64,000 nt of DNA from Eledone cirrhosa (Eukaryota). The translations under genes were made by a program, and so were the position numbers. Below, piece by piece: positions 1,231 to 50,335 of the stretch. The stretch is from the NCBI GenBank assembly GCA_964016885.1, contig OZ024753.1, positions 22,754,001 to 22,818,000 of the forward strand, given 5' to 3'. The notes under the pieces were generated by a model. It made no database searches and was not told the DNA's origin. It saw only the letters and a list, made by a program, of their open reading frames with translations. The stretch's first letter is position 1, and every line of letters begins with the position of its first letter.

Positions 1231-1528
1231 ATATATATATATATACAAGAATGACATTAAGAAAAATTGATGATGGTAGTTGATGTCACACTAAAGAGAA
1301 AGTGGAATTGTTATCGTTGTGACGCATGTCTTTATATATCTAGCCAAATAACCGTAATGAAGAACAGGGTTTATCGTAAGATTATCCAATATAAAGATAC
1401 TTGAAAGGACAATTTTTGTTGTACTCAACCAAGCGTTGTATTTAATTTTACATTCATTTAAATAAATTACAATTAATTTCCTTCCACATTTCCTTTAAAT
1501 ATTATCAGACATTCATCAACGATTTTGC

Positions 1529-1550
1529 TCTATCTATCTATCTATCTATC
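1529..1550 (+). repeat. (TATC)n microsatellite at the 5' junction of Tx1 copy 1
   Basis: tctatctatctatctatctatc directly precedes the element 5' UTR. Confidence 0.9.
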
Positions 1551-1770
1551 TCTCTGGGATGGACACACGCGTATAACTTGCTGAGTAAGTTCTGTTTAAA
1601 TTTCTATAGAAATTCTTGTCTGATAAATTTAATTTTTGTACCATTTTGTAGAGGGACTGCCAGGTCAAACTTTGATCTGGTCAGTCTCTCAAAATATTCT
1701 ACGCCTTTAGGCGAAATAGTTAAACAAAAAAAAAAAAGTTTTTTCTTGTTGAAAAGTCAATATTTTTTAA

Positions 1771-3564
1771 ATGGCCGAAGCTTCTTCACCAAAATTCGAA
1801 GGAGGAAAGGGGAAGATGAACTTACAGCTTCCCCCTGCCACTGTCACAGTAGCAGAGGTCAAGAAGAAAGGTCAGCCAGAGGAAGAATTCTCTCCACCTG
1901 TTAACCGACAGCTTGACGTTGCCATGGCAACAACCCAAAGAACCAGCAGCAACAGCAACAACAACAACAATGCGACGGACGAAAACAACACCAATAACAA
2001 TAACAACAACAACAACAACAAGACCAATAACGGTGACAACAACAACAATGATAACAACAACACCACCAACGACAACAACAACACAAACAAACAAAATTTC
2101 TCCTTCGCCGAGACGACAAGGAAAACCCTCGACTATCTGCCAGTAGATATAACAAAAGCGAAGGAGCTACTGGCGGATGCGAAAAAATATATAGTGTACG
2201 GGGAAAATGGTTCATTCACAATCCATTCCCCCCCGGAACTAAAAAGCCAGAGACTCCTAAACACGGTCATGTTTAGGACAATCTCGAACAAAAGTAAAAA
2301 ACCAGCTCAACCATCACAGAGCGAGATAGAGCTGGTTTTAAAAGACATCATGAAGGACATCACCTTCATTCAGAAGGATAGACTCTACGGGAGTCTATCC
2401 ATCCTCATGAAGGACAGGGACACAGCAGTGAAACTGTCCATCAAACCAATCACATCCACCGCATACACCTTCTACCCTACGTACATGGGTAGAAGAACAC
2501 AAAAAATAAAAATCCACACCATCCTGCCGATTATGGACATATGGTGGGTTTTGACAGGTTTTCTGGACCTGGAGGATGACATGCTGGTGTCCATGGGAAA
2601 GGCATCGGGTGACGCGTTCAGTGGAACGAGCCTCGAACTTGTAGTTCAAATGAGGCCCGAAAGGATCGCCCAGATCCCTGAACGCGTCATACTGGATGAT
2701 CTAACCTTCATCAACATTACCGTTGAGGGTAGACGGCCCTCGTGTTACCTCTGCGGAACCAGAGGTCACCTGAGGGCTGTCTGTCCCCAACTTAATAAGA
2801 AAACCCCAATCCTGCCTACACCACCAACAACTGCACAACCAACACAATCACCACAACTACCACTACAAAAACAACCACCACAGCTCAAACCAAAACAAAA
2901 CAATGTCCAACCCATCCCCTCCACTCAAAAAACAAAAACAATTTCCAAAACGCCCGTACCGCAAACACAACCCGAAAATATACCCCTCCCCTCCAACGCG
3001 GAAGATGACCCTAGTTCGTCGTCAGACGAGGAGGAGCACTTCCACACAATCAAAAGAAAAAAAAGAAAACACACCTCAGACACACAAATGAAAAATAACC
3101 CTCCCCAAAACATAACAGTGACACCAACACAAAAGAGCTCACAACAACAGCAAACAAAAAACACCACACAAAAACAAAAACATGCATACACATACATAAA
3201 TACAAGAAACAAAAAACTGTTAAACATTGTGTACAACAACAATCTAATAAAAACACAAGGGCCTAACTTCACCCAGGCAGGGGATTTCCCCCACCTCAAA
3301 ATGATTAAGGCCCCACAGGACACCTATAAAACTTTAAAAAACAATTTTAAAGAGGACGTGGGTCCCCCCTGCGTCGGGCCCATTAACCGCGTCCTCCTAA
3401 AAAACTATCCCACCCCCTCCCCAAACACCCACACAACTCCAAGCTCCCCAACCACACAACACACTGATGCCCCCACACTTCCACAAACCACCACCCCACC
3501 CAACAACCCATCCCCCACCCTAATGGAAATTGTGCAGCCCGATACCCGGGACGCAGAGAGGTAA
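1771..3564 (+). CDS. Tx1 ORF1 gag-like nucleic-acid-binding protein, 597 aa
   Basis: CCHC zinc knuckle CYLCGTRGHLRAVC, Asn-rich N-terminal tract, Pro/Gln/Thr-rich linker and basic KRKKRK patch. Homologous to ORF1 of copy 2. Confidence 0.9.
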   Translation: MAEASSPKFEGGKGKMNLQLPPATVTVAEVKKKGQPEEEFSPPVNRQLDVAMATTQRTSSNSNNNNNATDENNTNNNNNNNNNKTNNGDNNNNDNNNTTNDNNNTNKQNFSFAETTRKTLDYLPVDITKAKELLADAKKYIVYGENGSFTIHSPPELKSQRLLNTVMFRTISNKSKKPAQPSQSEIELVLKDIMKDITFIQKDRLYGSLSILMKDRDTAVKLSIKPITSTAYTFYPTYMGRRTQKIKIHTILPIMDIWWVLTGFLDLEDDMLVSMGKASGDAFSGTSLELVVQMRPERIAQIPERVILDDLTFINITVEGRRPSCYLCGTRGHLRAVCPQLNKKTPILPTPPTTAQPTQSPQLPLQKQPPQLKPKQNNVQPIPSTQKTKTISKTPVPQTQPENIPLPSNAEDDPSSSSDEEEHFHTIKRKKRKHTSDTQMKNNPPQNITVTPTQKSSQQQQTKNTTQKQKHAYTYINTRNKKLLNIVYNNNLIKTQGPNFTQAGDFPHLKMIKAPQDTYKTLKNNFKEDVGPPCVGPINRVLLKNYPTPSPNTHTTPSSPTTQHTDAPTLPQTTTPPNNPSPTLMEIVQPDTRDAER

Positions 3565-3588
3565 GTGCCTTTTCTCTTCACCACCAAC

Positions 3589-6500
3589 ATGGCTATGCTA
3601 AGAGTAGGCTGTTTAAATGCGCGTGGCCTGGGCTCAACTTGGAAGCAAGCAATGCTTCTAAATGACCTCAGGTCACAACGTATAGATGTGATGGTTATTT
3701 GCGAGGCCCGGATCAGCAACGTGCGACAGCTGGCCCCCACCTTTGATGACTTTGAGATGCACGCATCTCTCTGTCAGCCCGGAGGTGGGGGTGGAGTTGT
3801 CGTTCTGCTGCAAAAACATCTGGGTCTCGCAACACAGATGGTACATTTGGACCCGGAGGGTCGACTAGTGGTTCTGGACCTTGGCAGTGGTAAAGGCGGA
3901 ACGTTTAGGTTGGTAGCCGCCTACGGCCCTTTCGGGTCAATGCGGCCGGACTTCTTCCATCGTCTGGAGACTTTTCTGGGGACGTCCCGCTCCTTGCTAT
4001 TAGTGGGGGACTGGAATGGTATCCTAGATGCACGCTGGGACTACGTAGGGGCCTGTCCCGATAGAGAGGGGTGTAATAGCCTCAAAGGGTTAATCGGTCG
4101 ATTTGACCTGGCCGATAGATATCGACTAGATTTTCCGACTGCGACAACCTGGACTTGGGCAAATCGTAGCGGATCATCTAGGTCGTACCTAGATAGGTTC
4201 TTAGTTAGAATTAAGGATAAGGACTTTTTAAGTTGTCCAAAAATGCGCATGGTTGGCTATTCAGACCACAAATTAGTGACCTGCATGGTCAACCTTGACA
4301 GAACTCATAGACAGGGCACCGGTTACTGGAAGCTCAACTTGTCCTTGCCGGCAAGTAGAGCCTACAGGAATCGGATTAGTACGTTAGTTAAGGAACGGTT
4401 GACTGGAGCGATCGTCAACAGCAGGTGGTGGGTATCTCTAAAGAGAGAGATTAGAGTAGTCTCGATAGAATTTAGTAAGGTTCTAGCTGCGGATAGGAAT
4501 AGGAAGGAAAGGGAGCTAATAGATAGAGTAGAAGAGGCAATTAGAAGCGGCGACGTGGCCAGAGTGCTAGCGTCGAGAACGGCTTTGAGCCAGTTTTTCG
4601 ACGCGAAGCACGAAGGCTGCGTTGTCCGAAGTAAAATACGTGCTCTAGGGAACGAGGGGACCAAAGCTGTTAGCTGGGCCCGCGTGACAGAGGCCAACAG
4701 TGGAACTAAATCCACCATCCGGTCTTTGCGAGACCTGGATGGACGGGCGATTCTTGAGCCTAAGCAGATGTGTGAGGCCTTTCAAAGGCACTTTGCCCGA
4801 CTGTTCGGGAGGGGCGGGGAGCCGGTTGGGAACGTGGACTTCGGTCCATACCTCGACGGCCTGCCGCGCCTCTCGGACAGGGAGGCGAAGTCCTGCGAGG
4901 AGCCGATTTCGGCCGCTGAGATAGAGGACGTGCTGAGCCAATGCGGCAAACGCAAATCCCCGGGTCTCGATGGTCTTCCTTACGAATTATATCTAGCTAT
5001 GCCGGACTTGTTCCCCGATCTCCTCGAGGCGGTCTACTGCAACTGGCAACAGAACGGGAGAATTCCCTGTACTGTGACCAAGGGCGTAGTCACGCTAGTG
5101 AGGAAGGACGAGAACAAGGGGGACGAAATAAGTAACTTCAGGCCCATAACTCTGCTAAATACAGAGTTACAGATTTTGGCCAAGGTGCTAGCAAAGAGGT
5201 TGGCGCTTGTCGTGGGCAACCTGGTGGGAGATGCGCAGACATGCGCTATCCCGTCCAGGTCCATCCATGACAACCTCCACCTCATGCGATACATCATAGA
5301 GAGGGTTGGGCACGAACCCGGCTTTGGTGGGGCTCTGATCAACTTGGATCAATCTAAGGCGTTCGATAGGGTCGACCATGGTTACCTGGATGCGGTGCTA
5401 GCGGCGGCAGGCTTCGGACCCGTTTTCAGGGGCTGGATCACTGCTATGCACAGCAGCCGCATCTGCTCTAGGGTCAAGGTGAACGGCTACCTCTCGGAGC
5501 CGTTCCAAATCGCGCGGTCCATCCGACAAGGGTGCCCTCTCTCCTCCCTTCTGTATGTGTTGACTCTAGAGCCACTACTGCGGAAGTTGGAGTTGTTGCA
5601 GGGCATCCCTTTGGAACCGGGATTGCGGAAAGCGGTGTCGGCCTACGCCGATGACGTGACAGTAATGGTGTCGACGGCCTCCGAAATCGAGGCGGTCGGC
5701 ACCTTACTGGAGGAGTACGAAAGGTTCACAGGGGCTAAGCTGAACCGGGACAAGTCGATCGGTTTGCAACTCGGCACGTGGAGGGGCAGACCGATGCCCT
5801 CCGATGGCGTCGTCGGACGCTGGACGGAGGGCCCGGTGAAGTTGCTCGGGGTCTGGTTCGGACCGGACCTCCAGGTGGAGAAAAACTGGGCGGAGGTTAC
5901 GAACAGGGTGTTTGCACTGACCCAGAAGTGGGCCAGTTGCAAACTATCCCTGAAAGGTCGGGCGGAGGTGGCGAACACCTACATAGCGTCCGTCATCTAC
6001 TACCGCCTGACCGTAGTGCCCTGCCCAAGGGAAACCCTCACCAAGATGGAGCGCGCGCTCTTCCAATTCCTTTGGAAGAGGCGGGCTCCTATGGTGAGGA
6101 GATCCATCTGCTGTCAACACCCTTCGAAAGGAGGGCTGGGGATGCCGTGGCTAATGATGCGTAAACACGCATTAAGGCTACGGCACCTCTACGTATTCCT
6201 CACCGGACAACCGGTGTGGGCCTCGTTTGTGAGACGAACCTTTCCCAGACTCGTCTCACTCACCGAGCTGCAATCCTGGGTCAAGCAAAGACCGAGAAAA
6301 CTGGGCGCCTGGCACACTGAGTGTGCCCAGGCGCTCACCGCCCTCTGGCAGGCGGATCCGGTTATCAGTGGAGACTCCACCGCAACATTCTATAGAGGGC
6401 TGGTACGCAGCAGGTGCGACGACGCCCTCGGAGAAGCCCTAGACATGGAGGAGGACGAACTGGCCAGCCTGTTCGGTAGGACATTCAGCCCGGGACCTAT

Positions 6501-7026
6501 GGACAACTTCCAGAAGTCCCTGGCCTGGCAGTGCTACCGAGGGGCTTTACCCGTTCGAGAAAGGCTCTACAGACACGGGCGCCCGGGTAGGGACCCCGCC
6601 AAAAAGATCTGTCCCAGATGCGTGTGCGACGAGGAAACCGTTGCACACGCATTGGTACACTGCTCGGGCGTAGCCGATCTGTGGGGCTATGTCGAACAAC
6701 TGCTGTCAAGGGTGGGACCGATCCGGTTGACCACCGAGTCTATTGTAATGATCAAGCCGCCTCCCCCCTTCAAAGATGAAGCAGAGGCGGTGTTTCTGTG
6801 CGTAATAGCCATGGCGAAAGAGGTTGTATGGTGGACGCGTCTGAAAGGACTGAGGTCAGGCACCTTTCTCTCTGGCCAACAACTGGTCCGTTTCTTCCGA
6901 TATCATTTCGGAAGAAGGATCAGGATGGAGAGAGAGGTGCTGCACCCCAGCCGTTTCTATGAAAGATGGGTGAAAGTGGCGAGAATGGCCCGTGTGAATG
7001 GGCCTTCACTCTACATCAGACTATAG
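3589..7026 (+). CDS. Tx1 ORF2: AP endonuclease, reverse transcriptase and C-terminal zinc-binding motif
   Basis: APE motifs LNARGL, VGDWNG, SYLDRF, SDHKLV. RT motifs KSPGLDGLP, FRPITLLN, DQSKAFDRVDH, IRQGCPLS, AYADDV. C-terminal CPRC..ETVAHALVHC. First ATG at 3589, in frame with ORF1. Confidence 0.95.
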   Translation: MAMLRVGCLNARGLGSTWKQAMLLNDLRSQRIDVMVICEARISNVRQLAPTFDDFEMHASLCQPGGGGGVVVLLQKHLGLATQMVHLDPEGRLVVLDLGSGKGGTFRLVAAYGPFGSMRPDFFHRLETFLGTSRSLLLVGDWNGILDARWDYVGACPDREGCNSLKGLIGRFDLADRYRLDFPTATTWTWANRSGSSRSYLDRFLVRIKDKDFLSCPKMRMVGYSDHKLVTCMVNLDRTHRQGTGYWKLNLSLPASRAYRNRISTLVKERLTGAIVNSRWWVSLKREIRVVSIEFSKVLAADRNRKERELIDRVEEAIRSGDVARVLASRTALSQFFDAKHEGCVVRSKIRALGNEGTKAVSWARVTEANSGTKSTIRSLRDLDGRAILEPKQMCEAFQRHFARLFGRGGEPVGNVDFGPYLDGLPRLSDREAKSCEEPISAAEIEDVLSQCGKRKSPGLDGLPYELYLAMPDLFPDLLEAVYCNWQQNGRIPCTVTKGVVTLVRKDENKGDEISNFRPITLLNTELQILAKVLAKRLALVVGNLVGDAQTCAIPSRSIHDNLHLMRYIIERVGHEPGFGGALINLDQSKAFDRVDHGYLDAVLAAAGFGPVFRGWITAMHSSRICSRVKVNGYLSEPFQIARSIRQGCPLSSLLYVLTLEPLLRKLELLQGIPLEPGLRKAVSAYADDVTVMVSTASEIEAVGTLLEEYERFTGAKLNRDKSIGLQLGTWRGRPMPSDGVVGRWTEGPVKLLGVWFGPDLQVEKNWAEVTNRVFALTQKWASCKLSLKGRAEVANTYIASVIYYRLTVVPCPRETLTKMERALFQFLWKRRAPMVRRSICCQHPSKGGLGMPWLMMRKHALRLRHLYVFLTGQPVWASFVRRTFPRLVSLTELQSWVKQRPRKLGAWHTECAQALTALWQADPVISGDSTATFYRGLVRSRCDDALGEALDMEEDELASLFGRTFSPGPMDNFQKSLAWQCYRGALPVRERLYRHGRPGRDPAKKICPRCVCDEETVAHALVHCSGVADLWGYVEQLLSRVGPIRLTTESIVMIKPPPPFKDEAEAVFLCVIAMAKEVVWWTRLKGLRSGTFLSGQQLVRFFRYHFGRRIRMEREVLHPSRFYERWVKVARMARVNGPSLYIRL

Positions 7027-7290
7027 GTGAGGAAGATGAAAGACCAAGGGAGCACCCCTTCTCTGTGCTCCTGAGGAGAAGGGTTGCACACTTTTTTCGG
7101 GGGTGTGTGCGACCCCCCAAGGCGCCTCCTCTCTATTGAGGATTTTGTTAAAAATTTTATTTTTTGTTATATCTTATTTTATTTTTATATTTTGTTATTG
7201 CCTCCTCCTTATTGAGGACGCCTTTTTGTGTAAACTCCCCCCTTTGTACTTGTCCCACTTTTGATGCCCTAGTGGCAAATAAAAGAAATA

Positions 7291-12660
<5,370 letters not shown>

Positions 12661-12662
12661 CA

Positions 12663-12710
12663 TATCTATCTATCTATCTATATGTCTGTCTGTCTGTCTG
12701 TCTGTCTGTC
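12663..12710 (+). repeat. (TATC)n/(TGTC)n compound microsatellite between Tx1 copies 2 and 3
   Basis: tatctatctatctatctatatgtctgtctgtc... Confidence 0.9.
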
Positions 12711-14848
12711 TTAAGGGGGATGACATAGGAAACTTCCGGCCCATAACTCTGCTAAACACAGAGTTACAGATTTTGGCCAAGATGTTGGCAAAGAGGCTGG
12801 CGCTTGTCGTCGAAAACCTGGTGGGAGAAGCGCAGATATGCGCAATCCCGACCAGGTCCATACACGACAACCTCCACCTCATGCGATACATCATAGAAAG
12901 GGTAGGGTGTAAACCTGGCTTCGGTGGTGCCCTGATCAACTTGGATCAGTCTAAGGCTTTCGATAGGGTTGACCATCGTTACCTGGATGCGGTGCTCGAG
13001 GTGGCTGGCTTCGGACCCGTGTTCAGGGGCTGGATTGCTGCAATGCACAGCAGCAACATCTGCTCAAGGGTCAAGGTGAACGGCTACTTCTCGGAGCCGT
13101 TCCATATCACGCGATCCATCAGAGAGAGATGCCCTCTCTCCTCCCTTCTGAACGTACTGACTCTCGAGCCACTACTGCGGAAGTTGGAGCTATTACAGGG
13201 CATCCCTTTGGAACCGGGACTGCGAAATGCGGCGTCGGCCTACGCCTACGACGTGACAATAATGGTGTCGAGCACCTCGCAAATCGGGGAGGTCGGCACC
13301 TTACTGGAGGAATACGAAATGTTCACAGGAGCGAAGCTGAACCGGGACAAATCCGTCGGTTTGCAACTCGAAACGTGGAGAGGCAAACCGATGCCTTCCG
13401 ATGGCGTCGTCGGACGCTGGACGGAAGGACCGGTAAAGCTGCTCGGGGTCTGGTTTGGTCCGGACCTCCAGATGGAGAAGAACTGGATCGAGGTGACGGC
13501 CAAGGTGTTTGCGCTCACCCAGAAGTGGGCCGAGTGCAAACTATCCTTGAAAGGTCGAGCGGAGGTGGCGAACACTTTTATAGCGTCCGCCATCTACTAC
13601 CGATTGACCGTCGTGCCTTGTCCAGCCAAAACGCTCGCCAAAATGGAACGCGCGCTCTTCCAATTCCTTTGGAAGAGGCGGGCTCCTTTGGTGAGAAGAT
13701 CCATCTGCTGCTAACACCCTTCTAACGGAGGGCTGGGGAAGCCGTGGTTGACGATGCGCAAACACGCACTCAGGCTGTGGCATCTCTACGTATTCCTCAC
13801 CGGACAACCGGTGTGGGCTCCGTTCGTGAGGCGAGCCTTCCCACGACTCGTCTCGCTGACCGAGCTGCAGTCCTGGGTCAAGCAGAGACCGAGGAAAATG
13901 GGCGACTGGCACATCGAATGTGCTCAGGCGCTCACAGTCCTCTGGCAAACGGACCCGGCGATCAGTGGAGACTCCACTTCGACATTCTATAGAGCGTTGG
14001 TCCCTAGCATGTGCGACGAGGCGCTCGGAGAAACTTTATGCGTAGAGGAGGACGAACTGGCCAGTCTGTTCGGTAGGACCTTCCGCCCGGGACCAATGGA
14101 CAACTTCCAAAAGTCCCTGGCCTGGCAGTGCTACCGAGGAGCTCTACCAGTTCGAGACAAGCTCTACAGACACGGGCGCCCAGACAGGGGCCCTTCGAAA
14201 AAGATCTGTCCGAAATGCGTGCGCGACGAGGAAACCGTCGCGCACGCATTTGTACACTCCCCGGGCGTTACCGACCTGTGGGGCTATGTAGAACGACTAT
14301 TGTCGCGGCTGGGACCAATCCAGTTGACCACCGAGTACATTGTCATGATCAAACCGCCACCCTCCTTCAAAAACGAGGCAGAGGCGGTTTTCCTATGTGT
14401 TATGGTTATGGTGAAAGAGGTTATATGGTGGACGAGGTTAAAAGGGCTGAGGTCAGACACCCTTCTCTCCGGCGAGCAACTGATTCGTTTTTTCAAATAC
14501 CATGTTGGAAGAAGAATCAGGATGGAGAGAGAGGTGCTGTACCCCAGCAAATTTTATAAAAGGTGGGTGAATGTGGCAAAGATGGCCCGAGTAGTTGGGC
14601 CTTTTCTCTATATAAGCCTGTAGGTTGAGGAAAAAGAGGAAGATAGGAAGGGAGTACTCACTCTTGGTGCTCCTGGAGATGAGGGTTGTACATTTTTTAG
14701 GGGTGTGTACAACCCCTATGTAACGCATCCCCCCTATTGGGAATTTCAATTGTTGTTTATTAATAGTTTTATTTTCATATAACTGTATGTAAACTCCCCA
14801 TTTGTATTTGTCCTCTTCTTTTGTCCCCTTGTGGCTAATAAAGAAATT
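12711..14848 (+). mobile_element. 5'-truncated Tx1 element (copy 3)
   Basis: RT region 12773-13714 (AYAYDV, catalytic Asp mutated; premature TAA), C-terminus to 14623, 3' UTR ending AATAAAGAAA and then TATCTCTCTATCTA. Confidence 0.9.
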
Positions 14849-14862
14849 TATCTCTCTATCTA

Positions 14863-15944
14863 CGCTGAGGCTACGCCATCTCCAGGTGTTCCTGGCCGGT
14901 GAACCGCTGTGGCTGTCGTTTGTGAGACGAGCTCTTCCACAACTCGTCTCACTAACAGAGCTGCAGTCCTGGGTCAAGCGAAGACCGAAAATGGGCGCCT
15001 GGCACCTTGAGTACCTTCAGGCGCTCACAGCCCTCTACCAAGCGGAAACGGCAATCACCGGAGACTCCACTTCGACATTCTATAGGGTATTAGTGGAGGA
15101 TAAGTGCGACGACGTTCTCGGGGAAACTCTAGTCATCGAGGTAGACGAACTGACCAGTCTGTTCGGGAGGACTTTCCATCCAGGGCCAATGGATAACTTC
15201 CAGAGGTCTCTGGCCTGGCAGTGCTACCGAGGAGCTCTACCAGTTCGAGACAAAATCCTGCCAAAAAGACCTTTCGAAGATGCGAGCAGGACATCGAAAC
15301 CGTTCTGCACGCAATTGTTCAGTGTCCAGGAATGACCGACTTGTGGAATTATGTCGGACAGCTACTGTCACGTGTAGGATGCATCCAGTTGTCAGACGGT
15401 CCATCGTGAGGATCACCCCGCCGCCTTCATTTAAGAATGAAGGAGAGGCGGTCTTCCTCTGTCTGGCAGCTATAGCGAAAGAGGTAATATTGTAGACGAG
15501 GTTAAAAGGACTGAGGGCAAACACCTTTCTCTCCGGACAACAACTCATCCCCTTCTTTAAGTACCACTTCAGAAGGAAGGTGAGAATGGAGAGAGAGGTG
15601 CCACACCCCAGTAAATTCGCTGAAAGGTGGGTGAGTGTGGCGAAAATGGCCCGGGTGAATGGGCCTTCTCTGTATATAAATCTGTAGGTTGAGGAAGACA
15701 AACAGAGGGAAGTCGGAAACACCTACAAAACGTGTTCCTGGTGTTGAAGGTTGTTCCATCCACGGGGTGTAAAACAACCCCGCAATAACGTTAACCACCC
15801 TCCCCGCTCCTAATGGGGATTTCAATTGTTTTATTTTTATATAGTTTATTGTTATTTATCATTGTTAAAGATTTTATGTAAAACCTCCACCGTCACGTCT
15901 TGTAATGTCCCATTTTTGTACGCCCCTGTGGCAAATAAAGAAAG
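14863..15944 (+). mobile_element. 5'-truncated, more divergent Tx1 element (copy 4)
   Basis: LRLRHLQVFL...PMDNFQRSLAWQCYRGALPVRDK matches the ORF2 C-terminus. 3' end AATAAAGAAA followed by degenerate TATCTATTTGTCTATC. Confidence 0.88.
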
Positions 15945-16844
15945 ATATCTATTTGTCTATCAATCCTAGCGAATATATTATAAGATTCGACGAGGAAGAA
16001 AATTAAAATGTGTTTTTAGTCACGAGTGTTATGTCACTTGGCTATCTATGAACCTGAGTCAACGCTGTGTTATAAAGGTTTAGTTATAAAGGATATCAAA
16101 TGATATCAGATGATATCAAATGATATCGAATGATAATAAACACGAAGCAAATGTCTTTTTTATATCCCGTTCACTGTATGAAATAGCTTATATTTCAAAA
16201 GATTCAAGACTCTTTATTTTTACAGTCGTTTGAACAGGTTCAAAGTGAAAGTAAATAAACTGGCGTGTGTATGTCATTTCCACGGACAGATGTAGAAAAT
16301 AATAGAAGTTCTTTGATAACTCAGCGATATAATTTACATCATTGTAGAAGAACCAACTAAATATCAATGTAAATTCAACAGAGTAGAAATAATATAGCAG
16401 ACAAAGCTGTTAAGTTGTCAGATAATGCAAAACAGTCAAATAATCTCGATTAAGTAGAGTTATAACTGAGAGGGTTCCCATTATAATGATAATTTCTTTC
16501 AGATACTATGTAAGGGTCTATCTAGTAGAACATGTATGTGTATTCCTCTTTTTTCCAAGACAGTAAGGTTGATCTGTGGAAGATCTGGCTGTTATTTATT
16601 TATATGAAAGTCAATGACAGCACAGAGGTTCCTTCATCCATGTTTCTTACAGAATCAATCGATGTTGAAATTTAAGCTAAACATCGATTGATGTCGGCAA
16701 TTCGGACGGTAAAGTTTGCTGACATTTTTCTCCGACTCAATAAAATCTTATTGTAGACTAACTCTGTATTTCCGACGTCACAGAGTCAATAAGTTGTTTT
16801 ACTTTGCCATCCTTGCTAATAAGATGGTAAGCTCCACAGAATCC

Positions 16845-48709: not shown

Positions 48710-50335
48710 ATTTCTTTATTATTGGCCACAAGGGTCAAACATAGGGGACAAAGACGGGGACGGTGGGGTTGACAACAATATCGAGTAAAAAAATTAACAA
48801 AACAACAAAAAAATCAACAACAGAAATCCCCAGTAAGGAGTGGGATACCACCCAGGGGTGTCGTTAAGAAACCTACAAATCCCAACCCACCCTCATCTCC
48901 ACGAGGACCCTAGGAGGGCACCCCTCTTTCCCCCCATCCTTCCAGCCTATAGGCTAATTAACACGAGCCACCCTCGCAGCAATCACCCACCTTTTAAAAA
49001 ATGTTCTGGGGGCAGCACTTCTCTCTCCACCCTCATCTTTCTTTCTTAGCGCAACTTGAAAAAGTTGACGCGGGGTTGGCCGCAAAGGAAACTGTCTGTC
49101 TTCAGATTTTCAGTCGCATCCACCACACAAGCTCTACAGCTACAGCTATCAGACAGAGGAAAACTGACTGCTCTTCCTGGCCAAAAGAAGGCAGCGGGGC
49201 TATCTTCACGGTGGACACGGTTGATAGCCAGATCCGTTCCACACGCGATAACAGCTGTTCGACAGAACTCCACACTGGACGAATGCGTGTAAAACGGTTT
49301 CGTCGCCCAGCGCGCATCTCGGGCATGTCCGTCTCACAGCACTTACGTGCCTGTAGAGTTTATCTCCAACCGGCAAGACATCTCGGCAGCACTGCCAAGC
49401 GAGGGATTTCTAGAAATTGTCCATAGTCCCCGCCTCGAAAGTCCTCCGGAAAAGAATCTCTCCGAGAGCATCGTCACACTTGCCCACCACTAATCCTCTA
49501 TAGAACTCTAGAATGGAAGTTTCACAGACCACATTGCCCACCTGGCAGGGGGCAATGAGTGACTGGAAATATTCCAGGTGCCAGGTGCCCACTCTCGGTC
49601 ACTTCTTGAACCAGGACTACAGCTCAGTGAAAGAGACGAACTGAGGAAAAGCTCGTCTGACAAACGGTGACCACATCTGTTCACCGTTTAGGCAGAATAT
49701 CTGGAGATGCAGCATCCGCACCACATGTTTACGCATCATTAGCCACGACATGCCCAGCCTTCCGTACAGAGAAAGCTTCCTCTCGGAACATTTTAGAGTG
49801 AAAGTGGGTACCCACACCATTACCTCGGTTTTATCGAACAGCTTTGGCTCCCTCGTTTCTTAGAGAAGGCGCCTTAGCTCTAACAATGCAGCCTTCGTGT
49901 TTCGCATTGAGCAAGATCATCGAGCAAGCGGCCTAGCTTCCAGGTTGACCCCAGACCACGAACGTTTATGCACTACCTCTTAACATCCCTATGCTGATAA
50001 AAAAAAAAGAGAAAAAGAGGGTTACTTACTCTGCGGATGCTGTTGAAGGTCGGGTGGTTCGACATACATTTCTGGTTGGTGGGGTTTCTTTGGGAATCCC
50101 TTCAAAAGCCTATTTGAGGTTTTTACACTGGTGTTCACTCGTCGTTAGGAAGCTCTCCCCATTTATTTTATAATTGTCTAATGGCATCTGCACCAGAAAA
50201 AGTGTTTGAGGCAGTTTGAAGGAGCAGGTGCTGAATACCTTCCCCTCTTTCTCTATTTCCTTCCTTCATGTTATTAGGGCCATTAATGTTTGGTTGGATT
50301 TTCTGACGAACACGATCTTAGGTGACGGGTGGGAC
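48710..50335 (-). mobile_element. Multiply deleted Tx1 element (copy 5): ORF1 C-terminus, ORF2 fragments and 3' UTR
   Basis: Minus strand gives NQTLMALIT*RKEIEKEGKVF (ORF1 C-domain), MLR..CINVRGLGSTWK, NAKHEGCIVR, GMSWLMMRKH, TMDNF, VFLCLIAVAVELVWW. 3' end CCCTTGTGGCCAATAATAAAGAAAT. Confidence 0.85.

What the first reader, a model, noticed from the sequence alone, without database searches (positions are those of the whole stretch)
3555..3600. In-frame ORF1/ORF2 junction with splice-donor, polypyrimidine and acceptor-like signals in three divergent copies
Seen: copy 1 AG|GTAAGT-GCCTTTTCTCTTCAC|CACCAACATG. Copy 2 (9564-9597) G|GTGAGT-GATCTCTTTTCCTCTTTTAACTTTTCAG|CACCAACATG. Copy 5 (minus, 50029-49994) GA|GTAAGT-AACCCTCTTTTTCTCTTTTTTTTTTATCAG|CATAGGGATG. 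The ORF1 stop lies in or overlaps the GTRAGT, and the ORF2 ATG is in frame with ORF1 in all three although spacer lengths differ. Removing 21 nt (copy 1) or 36 nt (copy 5) would fuse the ORFs. Caveats: the 34-nt segment of copy 2 would not, copy 1 has CAC rather than CAG, and these lengths are below usual spliceosomal minima. Inference: a conserved device for ORF2 expression, such as a micro-intron, separate use of donor and acceptor, U1 binding, readthrough or re-initiation.
Basis: partly seen in the sequence, partly recalled or inferred. Interest (0 to 1): 0.75.

Follow-up and report, generated by a model that had tools for sequence, protein, structure and literature searches.

The report
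Retrotransposon splice donor inside RNA zipper
In an abundant jumping-gene (LINE) group, a splice-donor-like sequence is kept at the end of the first gene across distant lineages and lies in a predicted RNA zipper joining both ends of the second gene, so the cell likely cuts out that whole second gene, not a tiny intron, to make a message for the first protein alone; this is untested in RNA.

Summary
The letters are as described, in an L1/Tx1-type LINE with more than 1,400 related copies, but the three signals differ in standing.

Donor (GTRAGT at the ORF1 end): conserved. It is present in 7 of 7 lineages in this genome, in all three codon phases, and in relatives with 41% ORF2 identity that look like animal DNA inside a bacterial bin.

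Acceptor AG and in-frame spacing: not conserved (AG in 3 of 7 lineages, in frame in 3 of 7). Copy 5's AG and frame look like decay. None of about 1,517 copy-1-type junctions lacks the segment. Micro-intron and readthrough are rejected.

Pyrimidine tract: best explained as one arm of a predicted, co-varying long-range RNA duplex with the ORF2 end and 3'UTR start (best partner in 9 of 9 lineages).

Best reading (0.45): ORF2 is made from its own AUG on unspliced RNA. The donor likely splices to a distal acceptor at or beyond the ORF2 stop, giving an ORF1-only mRNA, as copia does for Gag. U1 docking without splicing is the main rival. No RNA evidence was available.

The parts
1556..7288 (+). Full-length, intact L1/Tx1-type LINE, copy 1 (family F1), between (TATC)n runs
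1585..1590 (+). 5'UTR donor-like GTAAGT followed by a T-rich tract; similar sites in most otherwise unalignable 5'UTRs of relatives
   Evidence: no processed copy found
1771..3564 (+). ORF1, 597 aa, CCHC knuckle at residue 325, no Pfam hit
3559..3566 (+). Conserved 5' splice-site-like motif AG|GTAAGT holding the ORF1 stop TAA (3562-3564)
3568..3581 (+). Pyrimidine tract ending in CAC (no AG); predicted to pair with 3'UTR positions +6 to +24
3548..3622 (+). 5' arm of the predicted long-range duplex (ORF1 end, donor, spacer, ORF2 AUG and first codons)
3589..7026 (+). ORF2, 1145 aa: APE endonuclease, reverse transcriptase, C-terminal CCHC
6988..7072 (+). 3' arm of the predicted duplex; includes the ORF2 stop TAG (7024-7026), which is also the candidate distal acceptor
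7278..7283 (+). AATAAA at the element's 3' end
7483..7488 (+). Copy 2 5'UTR donor-like GTGAGT
9564..9607 (+). Copy 2 (family F2) junction: GTGAGT, ORF1 stop TGA 9569-9571, second in-frame TAA 9587-9589, CAG 9595-9597, ATG 9605
12380..12466 (+). Copy 2 ORF2 end (stop ends at 12420), predicted partner of its junction (-67.7 kcal/mol)
49984..50029 (-). Copy 5 (decayed, F3a-type) junction: donor real; CAG and in-frame reading look like products of decay
48901..48987 (-). Copy 5 ORF2 end (stop ends at 48947), predicted partner of its junction (-55.8 kcal/mol)

Best explanation
The junction holds a conserved splice-donor-like motif at the ORF1 stop plus one arm of a predicted RNA duplex with the far end of ORF2; the donor likely splices to a distal acceptor at or beyond the ORF2 stop, which would remove all of ORF2 and give an ORF1-only mRNA, while ORF2 is likely made from its own AUG on unspliced RNA. 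Shown by sequence: conservation of the donor, non-conservation of AG and frame, co-varying complementarity between the two ends of ORF2, absence of processed copies. Predicted by folding only: the duplex, in which the pyrimidine tract pairs with the purine-rich 3'UTR start and CCAACATG faces the ORF2 stop region. Inferred: U1 binds the donor during the 3.4 kb of transcription before the 3' arm exists; the duplex then either bridges donor and acceptor or masks them, setting the ratio of ORF1-only to full-length RNA; a donor at the stop leaves ORF1p nearly unchanged and should avoid nonsense-mediated decay (own knowledge); ORF2 translation is by re-initiation after ORF1, as proposed for L1.
For: Donor: GTRAGT lies 27-41 nt before the ORF2 ATG in 7 of 7 lineages, in ORF1 phase 2 (F1, F1c, F6), phase 1 (F2, F3d, F5) and phase 0 (F3c, where ORF1 reads through it), so it is not tied to the stop codon. 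ORF2 identity among the five young families is 68-90%, and only 82 of 268 four-fold sites are invariant, about 0.003 for five free positions (rough and post hoc). Position +3 varies A/G, as the recalled donor consensus allows. It is present in 30 of 30 F6 and 30 of 30 F2 loci and in 75 of 75 junction matches in 41%-identical relatives (overlapping loci of one assembly). Duplex: the ORF2-end window is the best partner among 443-537 windows in 9 of 9 lineages, z -4.8 to -7.3; matched pairs beat swapped pairs in 31 of 36 comparisons; sense beats antisense in 9 of 9; the tract is 71-85% paired to positions +4..+31 after the stop; the distant relatives also pair, at -74 and -66.5 kcal/mol. Distal acceptor: the AG of the ORF2 stop ranks 5/111, 2/112, 9/121 and 8/117 by pyrimidine count. 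F6, which ends in TAA, has a 3'UTR site ranking 2/125; the distant relatives have 3'UTR sites ranking 1/130 and 1/134, with the AG invariant among the 3'UTR variants shown. In the donor's phase a stop follows within 2 codons in 6 of 9 lineages, against 1 of 18 other frames. Precedent: PMC5580714 (passages).
Against: There are no RNA data. No ORF1-only processed copy was found among 1,490 intact plus 27 variant F1-type junctions or 7 F2 hits; cis-preference lowers the expectation but does not make it zero. No GT-AG deletion was found in 40 tandem loci of the distant relatives, although their 3'UTR has its own donor-acceptor pair. The conserved TAG-G at the ORF2 stop is equally explained by the duplex, and it lies inside the predicted stem with a weak tract. 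No early stop follows in F1c (34 codons), F1d (56) or F6 (19), and probably not in the minor F2 sub-lineage with an extra G. One distant lineage (L354) keeps the duplex but lacks the junction donor. F1's duplex beats its next-best window only narrowly (-62.1 vs -60.6). The acceptor score is a crude pyrimidine count, and the 3'UTRs are T-rich.
Confidence: 0.45

Rival explanations
1. The donor is a U1 docking site that is not spliced. It would protect or stabilise the full-length bicistronic RNA (suppress premature 3' end formation, aid transcription or export), while the duplex controls ORF2 translation.
For: No processed copies (47/50, 73, 98/100). Donor-like motifs recur at landmarks: 5'UTR, ORF1 stop and, in the distant relatives, just after the ORF2 stop. 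U1 suppresses premature termination in EVD (PMC5580714, passages). The human L1 5'UTR donor is conserved yet rarely spliced (PMC5860796, discussion part 1).
Against: Few poly(A) hexamers lie downstream of the donor inside ORF2 (0 in F1, 1 in F5, 0 in L359). It does not explain the phase-matched stops or the either/or distal acceptors.
Confidence: 0.27
2. Only the long-range duplex matters. It would hide the ORF2 AUG until a ribosome finishing ORF1 opens it (translational coupling), and GTRAGT is an inherited by-product of overlapping stop codons and pairing.
For: The duplex is found in all own-genome lineages and in L354, which lacks the donor. GTAAGTAA and GTGAGTGA carry stops in two frames. 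RNA structure couples ORF2 translation in SART1 and re-initiation is proposed for L1 (PMC5972666, passage).
Against: The donor stays fixed while its pairing partners change and its centre is often unpaired. It persists in all three phases, including one with no stop inside it, and at 41% identity. Predicted AUG masking is inconsistent: F6 becomes more open with the 3' arm.
Confidence: 0.15
3. The junction AG is used as an acceptor from the 5'UTR donor, which would give an ORF2-only mRNA like human SpORF2, in the families that have the AG.
For: The junction AG is the top pyrimidine-rich YAG in F2, F3c and F5. 5'UTR donors exist. SpORF2 exists in human L1 (PMC2896524, abstract).
Against: No AG in F1, F1c, F3d, F6 or the distant relatives. 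37 of 37 F5 loci with a non-standard frame length keep ORF1 upstream. No hit in F1. Not tested directly in F2.
Confidence: 0.07
4. One reading: a 21-36 nt micro-intron, or stop readthrough, fuses ORF1 to ORF2.
For: In frame in F1 and F2; donor, tract and AG look like an intron in copy 2.
Against: The most abundant family has no AG. In frame in only 3 of 7 lineages; the young intact families F5 and F6 are out of frame. A second in-frame stop lies in the F2 spacer. The gap is 13 nt in distant relatives. None of about 1,517 F1-type copies lacks the segment, although by cis-preference such RNA should be the main template (inference; PMC5860796).
Confidence: 0.02

Closest known systems
Tx1-group non-LTR retrotransposons that target microsatellites (Kibi, Koshi, crocodilian Tx1; PMC4494074, passages)
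   Same: Two ORFs, APE-RT-CCHC ORF2, microsatellite flanks ((TATC)n in 21 of 33 F1-type 3' flanks; (TAT)n seen beside F3c, F5 and F6 copies).
   Different: No donor at the ORF1 stop or ORF2-closing duplex was found described in my ten searches. Relatives at 24-29% identity show neither at the positions tested. Clade placement against named Tx1 references was not tested.
Ty1/Copia subgenomic Gag splicing: Arabidopsis EVD shGAG and Drosophila copia (PMC5580714, passages)
   Same: A conserved donor at the end of the structural-protein ORF; U1 both enables a Gag-only RNA and protects full-length RNA; in Drosophila copia a roughly 3-kb intron removes pol.
   Different: Those are LTR elements with one gag-pol ORF, and their splicing is proven. 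Here there are two ORFs, a predicted duplex over both sites, and no RNA evidence.
Human L1 splice donor G98U99, SpIREs and SpORF2 (PMC5860796 abstract, discussion part 1 and passages; PMC2896524 abstract)
   Same: A LINE keeps a 5'UTR donor; rare splicing leaves processed genomic copies (about 2% of full-length L1).
   Different: The L1 donor lies in the 5'UTR and is explained by a RUNX3 site, and its splicing removes 5'UTR or ORF1. Here the best-kept donor is at the ORF1 stop and no processed copies were found.
Termination-reinitiation on bicistronic LINE RNA: L1 and SART1 (PMC5972666, passage; the primary papers were not held)
   Same: ORF2 has its own AUG after a short spacer in any frame; RNA structure is implicated in SART1.
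   Different: SART1 uses an overlapping stop-start with a local downstream structure; here the predicted partner lies 3.4 kb away.
Structure-bridged introns of zebrafish (PMC4691745, abstract)
   Same: Complementary sequences at both ends of an intron can enforce splice-site pairing and replace the need for U2AF2.
   Different: Those are simple AC/GT repeats inside host introns; here the predicted stem covers the splice sites and coding sequence.

Membership tests
L1/Tx1-group LINE | ORF2 with N-terminal APE endonuclease, RT and C-terminal CCHC | tested here: met
   Pfam PF03372, PF00078, PF13966 (the last below its cut-off); closest solved structure is L1 ORF2p, E 1e-48; GDWN, SDH, YADD and CCHC motifs
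L1/Tx1-group LINE | Separate upstream ORF1 with a zinc knuckle | tested here: met
   597 aa ORF1, CX2CX4HX4C at residue 325; no Pfam hit
Tx1 clade (microsatellite-targeting) | Target preference for a repeat | tested here: met
   21 of 33 3' flanks hold TATC repeats; criterion of more than 20% from PMC4494074
Tx1 clade (microsatellite-targeting) | RT phylogeny with named Tx1 references | not testable with these tools
   The close homologs returned carry no names
Spliceosomal micro-intron | Conserved terminal AG | tested here: not met
   AG in 3 of 7 lineages, at differing positions; none in 28 F1 loci or 30 F6 loci
Spliceosomal micro-intron | Removal keeps the frame across the family | tested here: not met
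   Stop-to-ATG distances 27, 26, 36, 12, 35, 32, 37 nt; 34 nt segment in F2
Spliceosomal micro-intron | Processed copies or split reads | tested here: not met
   0 processed among 27 variant and 1,490 intact F1-type junctions; split reads could not be tested
Stop-codon readthrough | A single in-frame stop between the ORFs | tested here: not met
   Out of frame in 4 of 7 lineages; two in-frame stops in F2
Copia-type subgenomic splice (works like) | Conserved donor at the end of the structural ORF | tested here: met
Copia-type subgenomic splice (works like) | Downstream acceptor that leaves a terminated ORF1 | tested here: inconclusive
   Candidates rank 1-9 of 111-134 YAG sites; early stop in 6 of 9 lineages; confounded with the duplex
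Copia-type subgenomic splice (works like) | Spliced RNA detected | not testable with these tools

The most novel reading that the evidence does not exclude
A clade of animal Tx1-type LINEs builds its whole reverse-transcriptase gene as an optional 3.4-kb intron closed by a co-evolving RNA zipper. The race between U1 binding at the ORF1 stop and zipper closure switches each transcript between an ORF1-only mRNA and the full-length template, a LINE counterpart of copia's Gag splice.
Probability: 0.35. Interest if true: 0.8.

Novelty: new variant of a known kind. Interest (0 to 1): 0.56.

Why it matters
How two-ORF LINEs make much ORF1p and little ORF2p from one RNA is a long-standing question, usually answered by inefficient re-initiation. 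A conserved donor at the ORF1 stop and a 3.4-kb-range duplex give a different, directly testable answer in a group with several young, intact, high-copy families. If the donor is used, it would also let thousands of insertions splice into host transcripts. The duplex is worth a test on its own, whichever way the splicing question falls.

Tried and rejected
RNA: no RNA holder listed. Laying four contig sets of unknown kind on 1556-4000 listed 6 joints, none at either donor; contigs cannot show absence, so this is not counted either way. The span from the ORF1 end to the 3'UTR has no read-laying result.

Processed-copy searches all came up empty:
- F1 donor: 7 + 14 + 6 variant hits, all point changes or small indels. 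Exons beginning GTA would be invisible.
- F1 5'UTR donor: 0 hits. Its prefix is in 7 of 40 sampled copies, so about 260 copies were at risk, a weak bound.
- F2: 7 hits, none spliced, denominator not counted. One hit first looked like the predicted splice and was a one-base change.
- Internal deletions in 40 F1-type loci showed no GT-AG ends.

A possible 5'-truncation hotspot in the spacer (2 of the first 30 loci) was not seen again in 38 further F1 loci or 37 F5 loci; these were the rows with a non-standard frame length not already seen intact.

The column-invariance count (6 of 9) is partly circular because rows were anchored on the motif, so it is not used as evidence. AG depletion in the distal 3'UTR was nominal in only 2 of 9 lineages and was dropped.

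No Rfam match in 1500-16100. No relatives in viral contigs. The protein atlas did not answer. The primary L1 and SART1 translation papers were not held. For the four most distant elements only the stop-centred window was examined for the duplex, so an offset partner is not excluded. No supplements were read.
Full report
What the element is. The finding lies at the ORF1/ORF2 boundary of an intact non-LTR retrotransposon (1556-7288). ORF1 is 597 aa with a CCHC knuckle; ORF2 is 1145 aa with endonuclease, RT and C-terminal zinc motif, and its closest solved structure is L1 ORF2p. The genome is 3.0 Gb. No call named the host; an octopus-like cephalopod is my inference from genome size and repeats, and active L1-Tx1 families are listed for Octopus vulgaris (PMC13282606, passages). 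The group is abundant and young: 150 of 150 scored hits were identical over the first 100 ORF2 residues, and 1,490 places carry the copy-1-type junction 18-mer. Copies sit beside microsatellites (21 of 33 3' flanks), as Tx1 elements such as Kibi and Koshi do (PMC4494074, passages).

Checking the observation. All three strings are present as written. The in-frame claim fails on inspection. Copy 2 has a second in-frame stop in its spacer. In copy 5 the homologue of the ORF1 terminal peptide is in another frame than ORF2, and its CAG and ATG correspond to the decayed start context of its relatives. I sampled lineages with own-genome searches and full-length fetches; the labels F1-F6 are mine. Over seven lineage representatives the stop-to-ATG distance is 27, 26, 36, 12, 35, 32 and 37 nt, in frame in 3 of 7, and an AG lies in the spacer in 3 of 7, at -9, -11 and -3. 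The young families F5 and F6 are out of frame, and F1 and F6 have no AG.

What is conserved. GTRAGT preceded by G lies 27-41 nt before the ORF2 ATG in 7 of 7 lineages and in all three ORF1 codon phases. The F3c frame rests on copies with 186-238 open codons. Only 82 of 268 four-fold sites of ORF2 are invariant across the five young families, so five free positions would stay fixed about 0.3% of the time (rough). It is found in 118 of 144 distinct junction contexts and in neither control window. A scan of prokaryote genome contigs returned tandem arrays of 41%-identical relatives, apparently animal DNA inside a MAG. There ORF1 ends in TAA, followed after one G by GTAAGT, and ORF2 starts 13 nt later, out of frame, with no tract and no AG (75 of 75 junction matches; overlapping loci from one assembly). 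One lineage there (L354) lacks the junction donor. Elements at 24-29% identity lack it too (L205, L208, L211, L392).

Processed copies as a proxy for RNA. LINE copies are made from RNA, and human L1 leaves spliced copies at about 2% of full-length elements (PMC5860796, discussion part 1). I retrieved every exact match of the 15-nt exon-side motif whose next bases depart from GTA: 14 at +1, 6 at +2 and 7 at +3. All were point changes or small indels. Seven F2 hits were unspliced, and 38 of 38 F1 and 37 of 37 F5 loci fetched for non-standard frame length kept the junction. If ORF2p came from a micro-intron-spliced RNA, cis-preference should make such copies common (inference), so this rejects the micro-intron. 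It says less about an ORF1-only RNA, which makes no ORF2p.

The pyrimidine tract. An earlier AI note (e1-8673698) suggested that the two ends of ORF2 pair, and I tested it. An 86-nt window around the ORF2 start pairs best with the window around the ORF2 stop, out of 443-537 windows, in 9 of 9 lineages, z -4.8 to -7.3 against 100 shuffles (the F6 arms came from two adjacent copies, and F1's margin is slim). Matched pairs beat swapped pairs in 31 of 36 comparisons, the five misses being close relatives. The sense strand is more stable than the antisense in 9 of 9. The tract is 71-85% paired with the purine-rich first 31 nt of the 3'UTR. In the distant relatives the partner lies inside the ORF2 end (-74 and -66.5 kcal/mol), which accounts for their lack of a tract. 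In the window the arms are 3548-3622 and 6988-7072. The donor keeps its sequence while its partners change, and its centre is usually unpaired, so the duplex does not explain it. All of this is prediction from folding.

A distal acceptor. I noted, before seeing earlier notes, that the ORF2 stop reads as YAG-G. It ranks 5/111 (F1), 2/112 (F2), 9/121 (F3c) and 8/117 (F5) by a crude pyrimidine count. F6 ends in TAA but has a 3'UTR site ranking 2/125, and the distant relatives have 3'UTR sites ranking 1/130 and 1/134, plus a second donor just after the ORF2 stop. In the phase set by each donor a stop follows within two codons in 6 of 9 lineages, against 1 of 18 other frames; F1c, F1d and F6 miss. 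Against this reading: the TAG-G is also explained by the duplex, no processed ORF1-only copy was found, and 40 tandem loci of the distant relatives showed no GT-AG deletion.

Mechanism. I give 0.45 to splicing out ORF2 to make an ORF1-only mRNA under control of the duplex, 0.27 to U1 docking without splicing, 0.15 to duplex-only translational coupling, 0.07 to an SpORF2-like RNA in AG-bearing families, and 0.02 to a micro-intron or readthrough. The first three are not exclusive; EVD uses U1 for both splicing and protection (PMC5580714, passages). ORF2 translation by re-initiation is taken from L1 and SART1 as summarised in PMC5972666 (passage). The NMD argument and the donor consensus are my own knowledge.

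Novelty. Ten searches of the held library showed no listing that describes a donor at a LINE ORF1 stop or a duplex closing ORF2. Subscription papers and Repbase notes were not searched. It works like copia's Gag splice but in a two-ORF LINE, so I file it as a new variant of a known kind. Earlier notes of this scan on the same genome reached similar readings; they are unchecked and not independent support. New here are the processed-copy census, the three-phase conservation and the 41%-identical relatives. Papers seen: PMC5860796 (abstract, discussion part 1 of 2, passages); PMC5972666, PMC4494074, PMC13282606, PMC5580714 (passages); PMC2896524, PMC4691745 (abstracts); others as search listings only.

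Noticed in passing
   Followed up: no
window 1585 and 7483; L129, L132, L134, L154, L244, L359:1780: Most full-length 5'UTRs, though unalignable, carry GTRAGT plus a T-rich tract some 25-70 nt from the 5' end; F3c and F6 have weaker versions.
   Followed up: partly
window about 1650-1712: Predicted hairpins before the ORF1 start (5'UTR z -3.0); similar GGGCC..GGCCC hairpins are seen by eye in F3c, F5 and F6.
   Followed up: no
L355-L396 (CAXXMW01 contigs), L397, L392, L393: Bacterial MAGs in the genome collection contain what looks like animal LINE DNA; one holds dozens of tandem 6.4-6.8 kb units, which points to host contamination.
   Followed up: partly
L359:7486 and about 7735; L354:3893: The distant relatives have an intron-like donor-acceptor pair in the 3'UTR, retained in all copies examined.
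   Followed up: partly
L354 about 380-394: This lineage has a near-overlapping stop/start (TAA then ATG close by) and the duplex, but no junction donor.
   Followed up: partly
G000:C1:423365263-423418069: Ten F5 copies in tandem at about 5.84 kb spacing; families differ in target, (TATC)n for F1/F2 and (TAT)n for F3c/F5/F6.
   Followed up: no
window 3523-3564: A short ORF1-terminal peptide starting Met-Glu in a good start context is kept in F1-F5 but not F6.
   Followed up: no
L123-L126: Four F1-type copies have GTTAGT, which removes the ORF1 stop and runs in frame into ORF2; they may be independent mutations or a small sub-lineage.
   Followed up: no
window 35403-36791 and 32923-33708: ORFs that look like Penelope-type RT and GIY-YIG pieces (recalled resemblance, not searched).
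   Followed up: no
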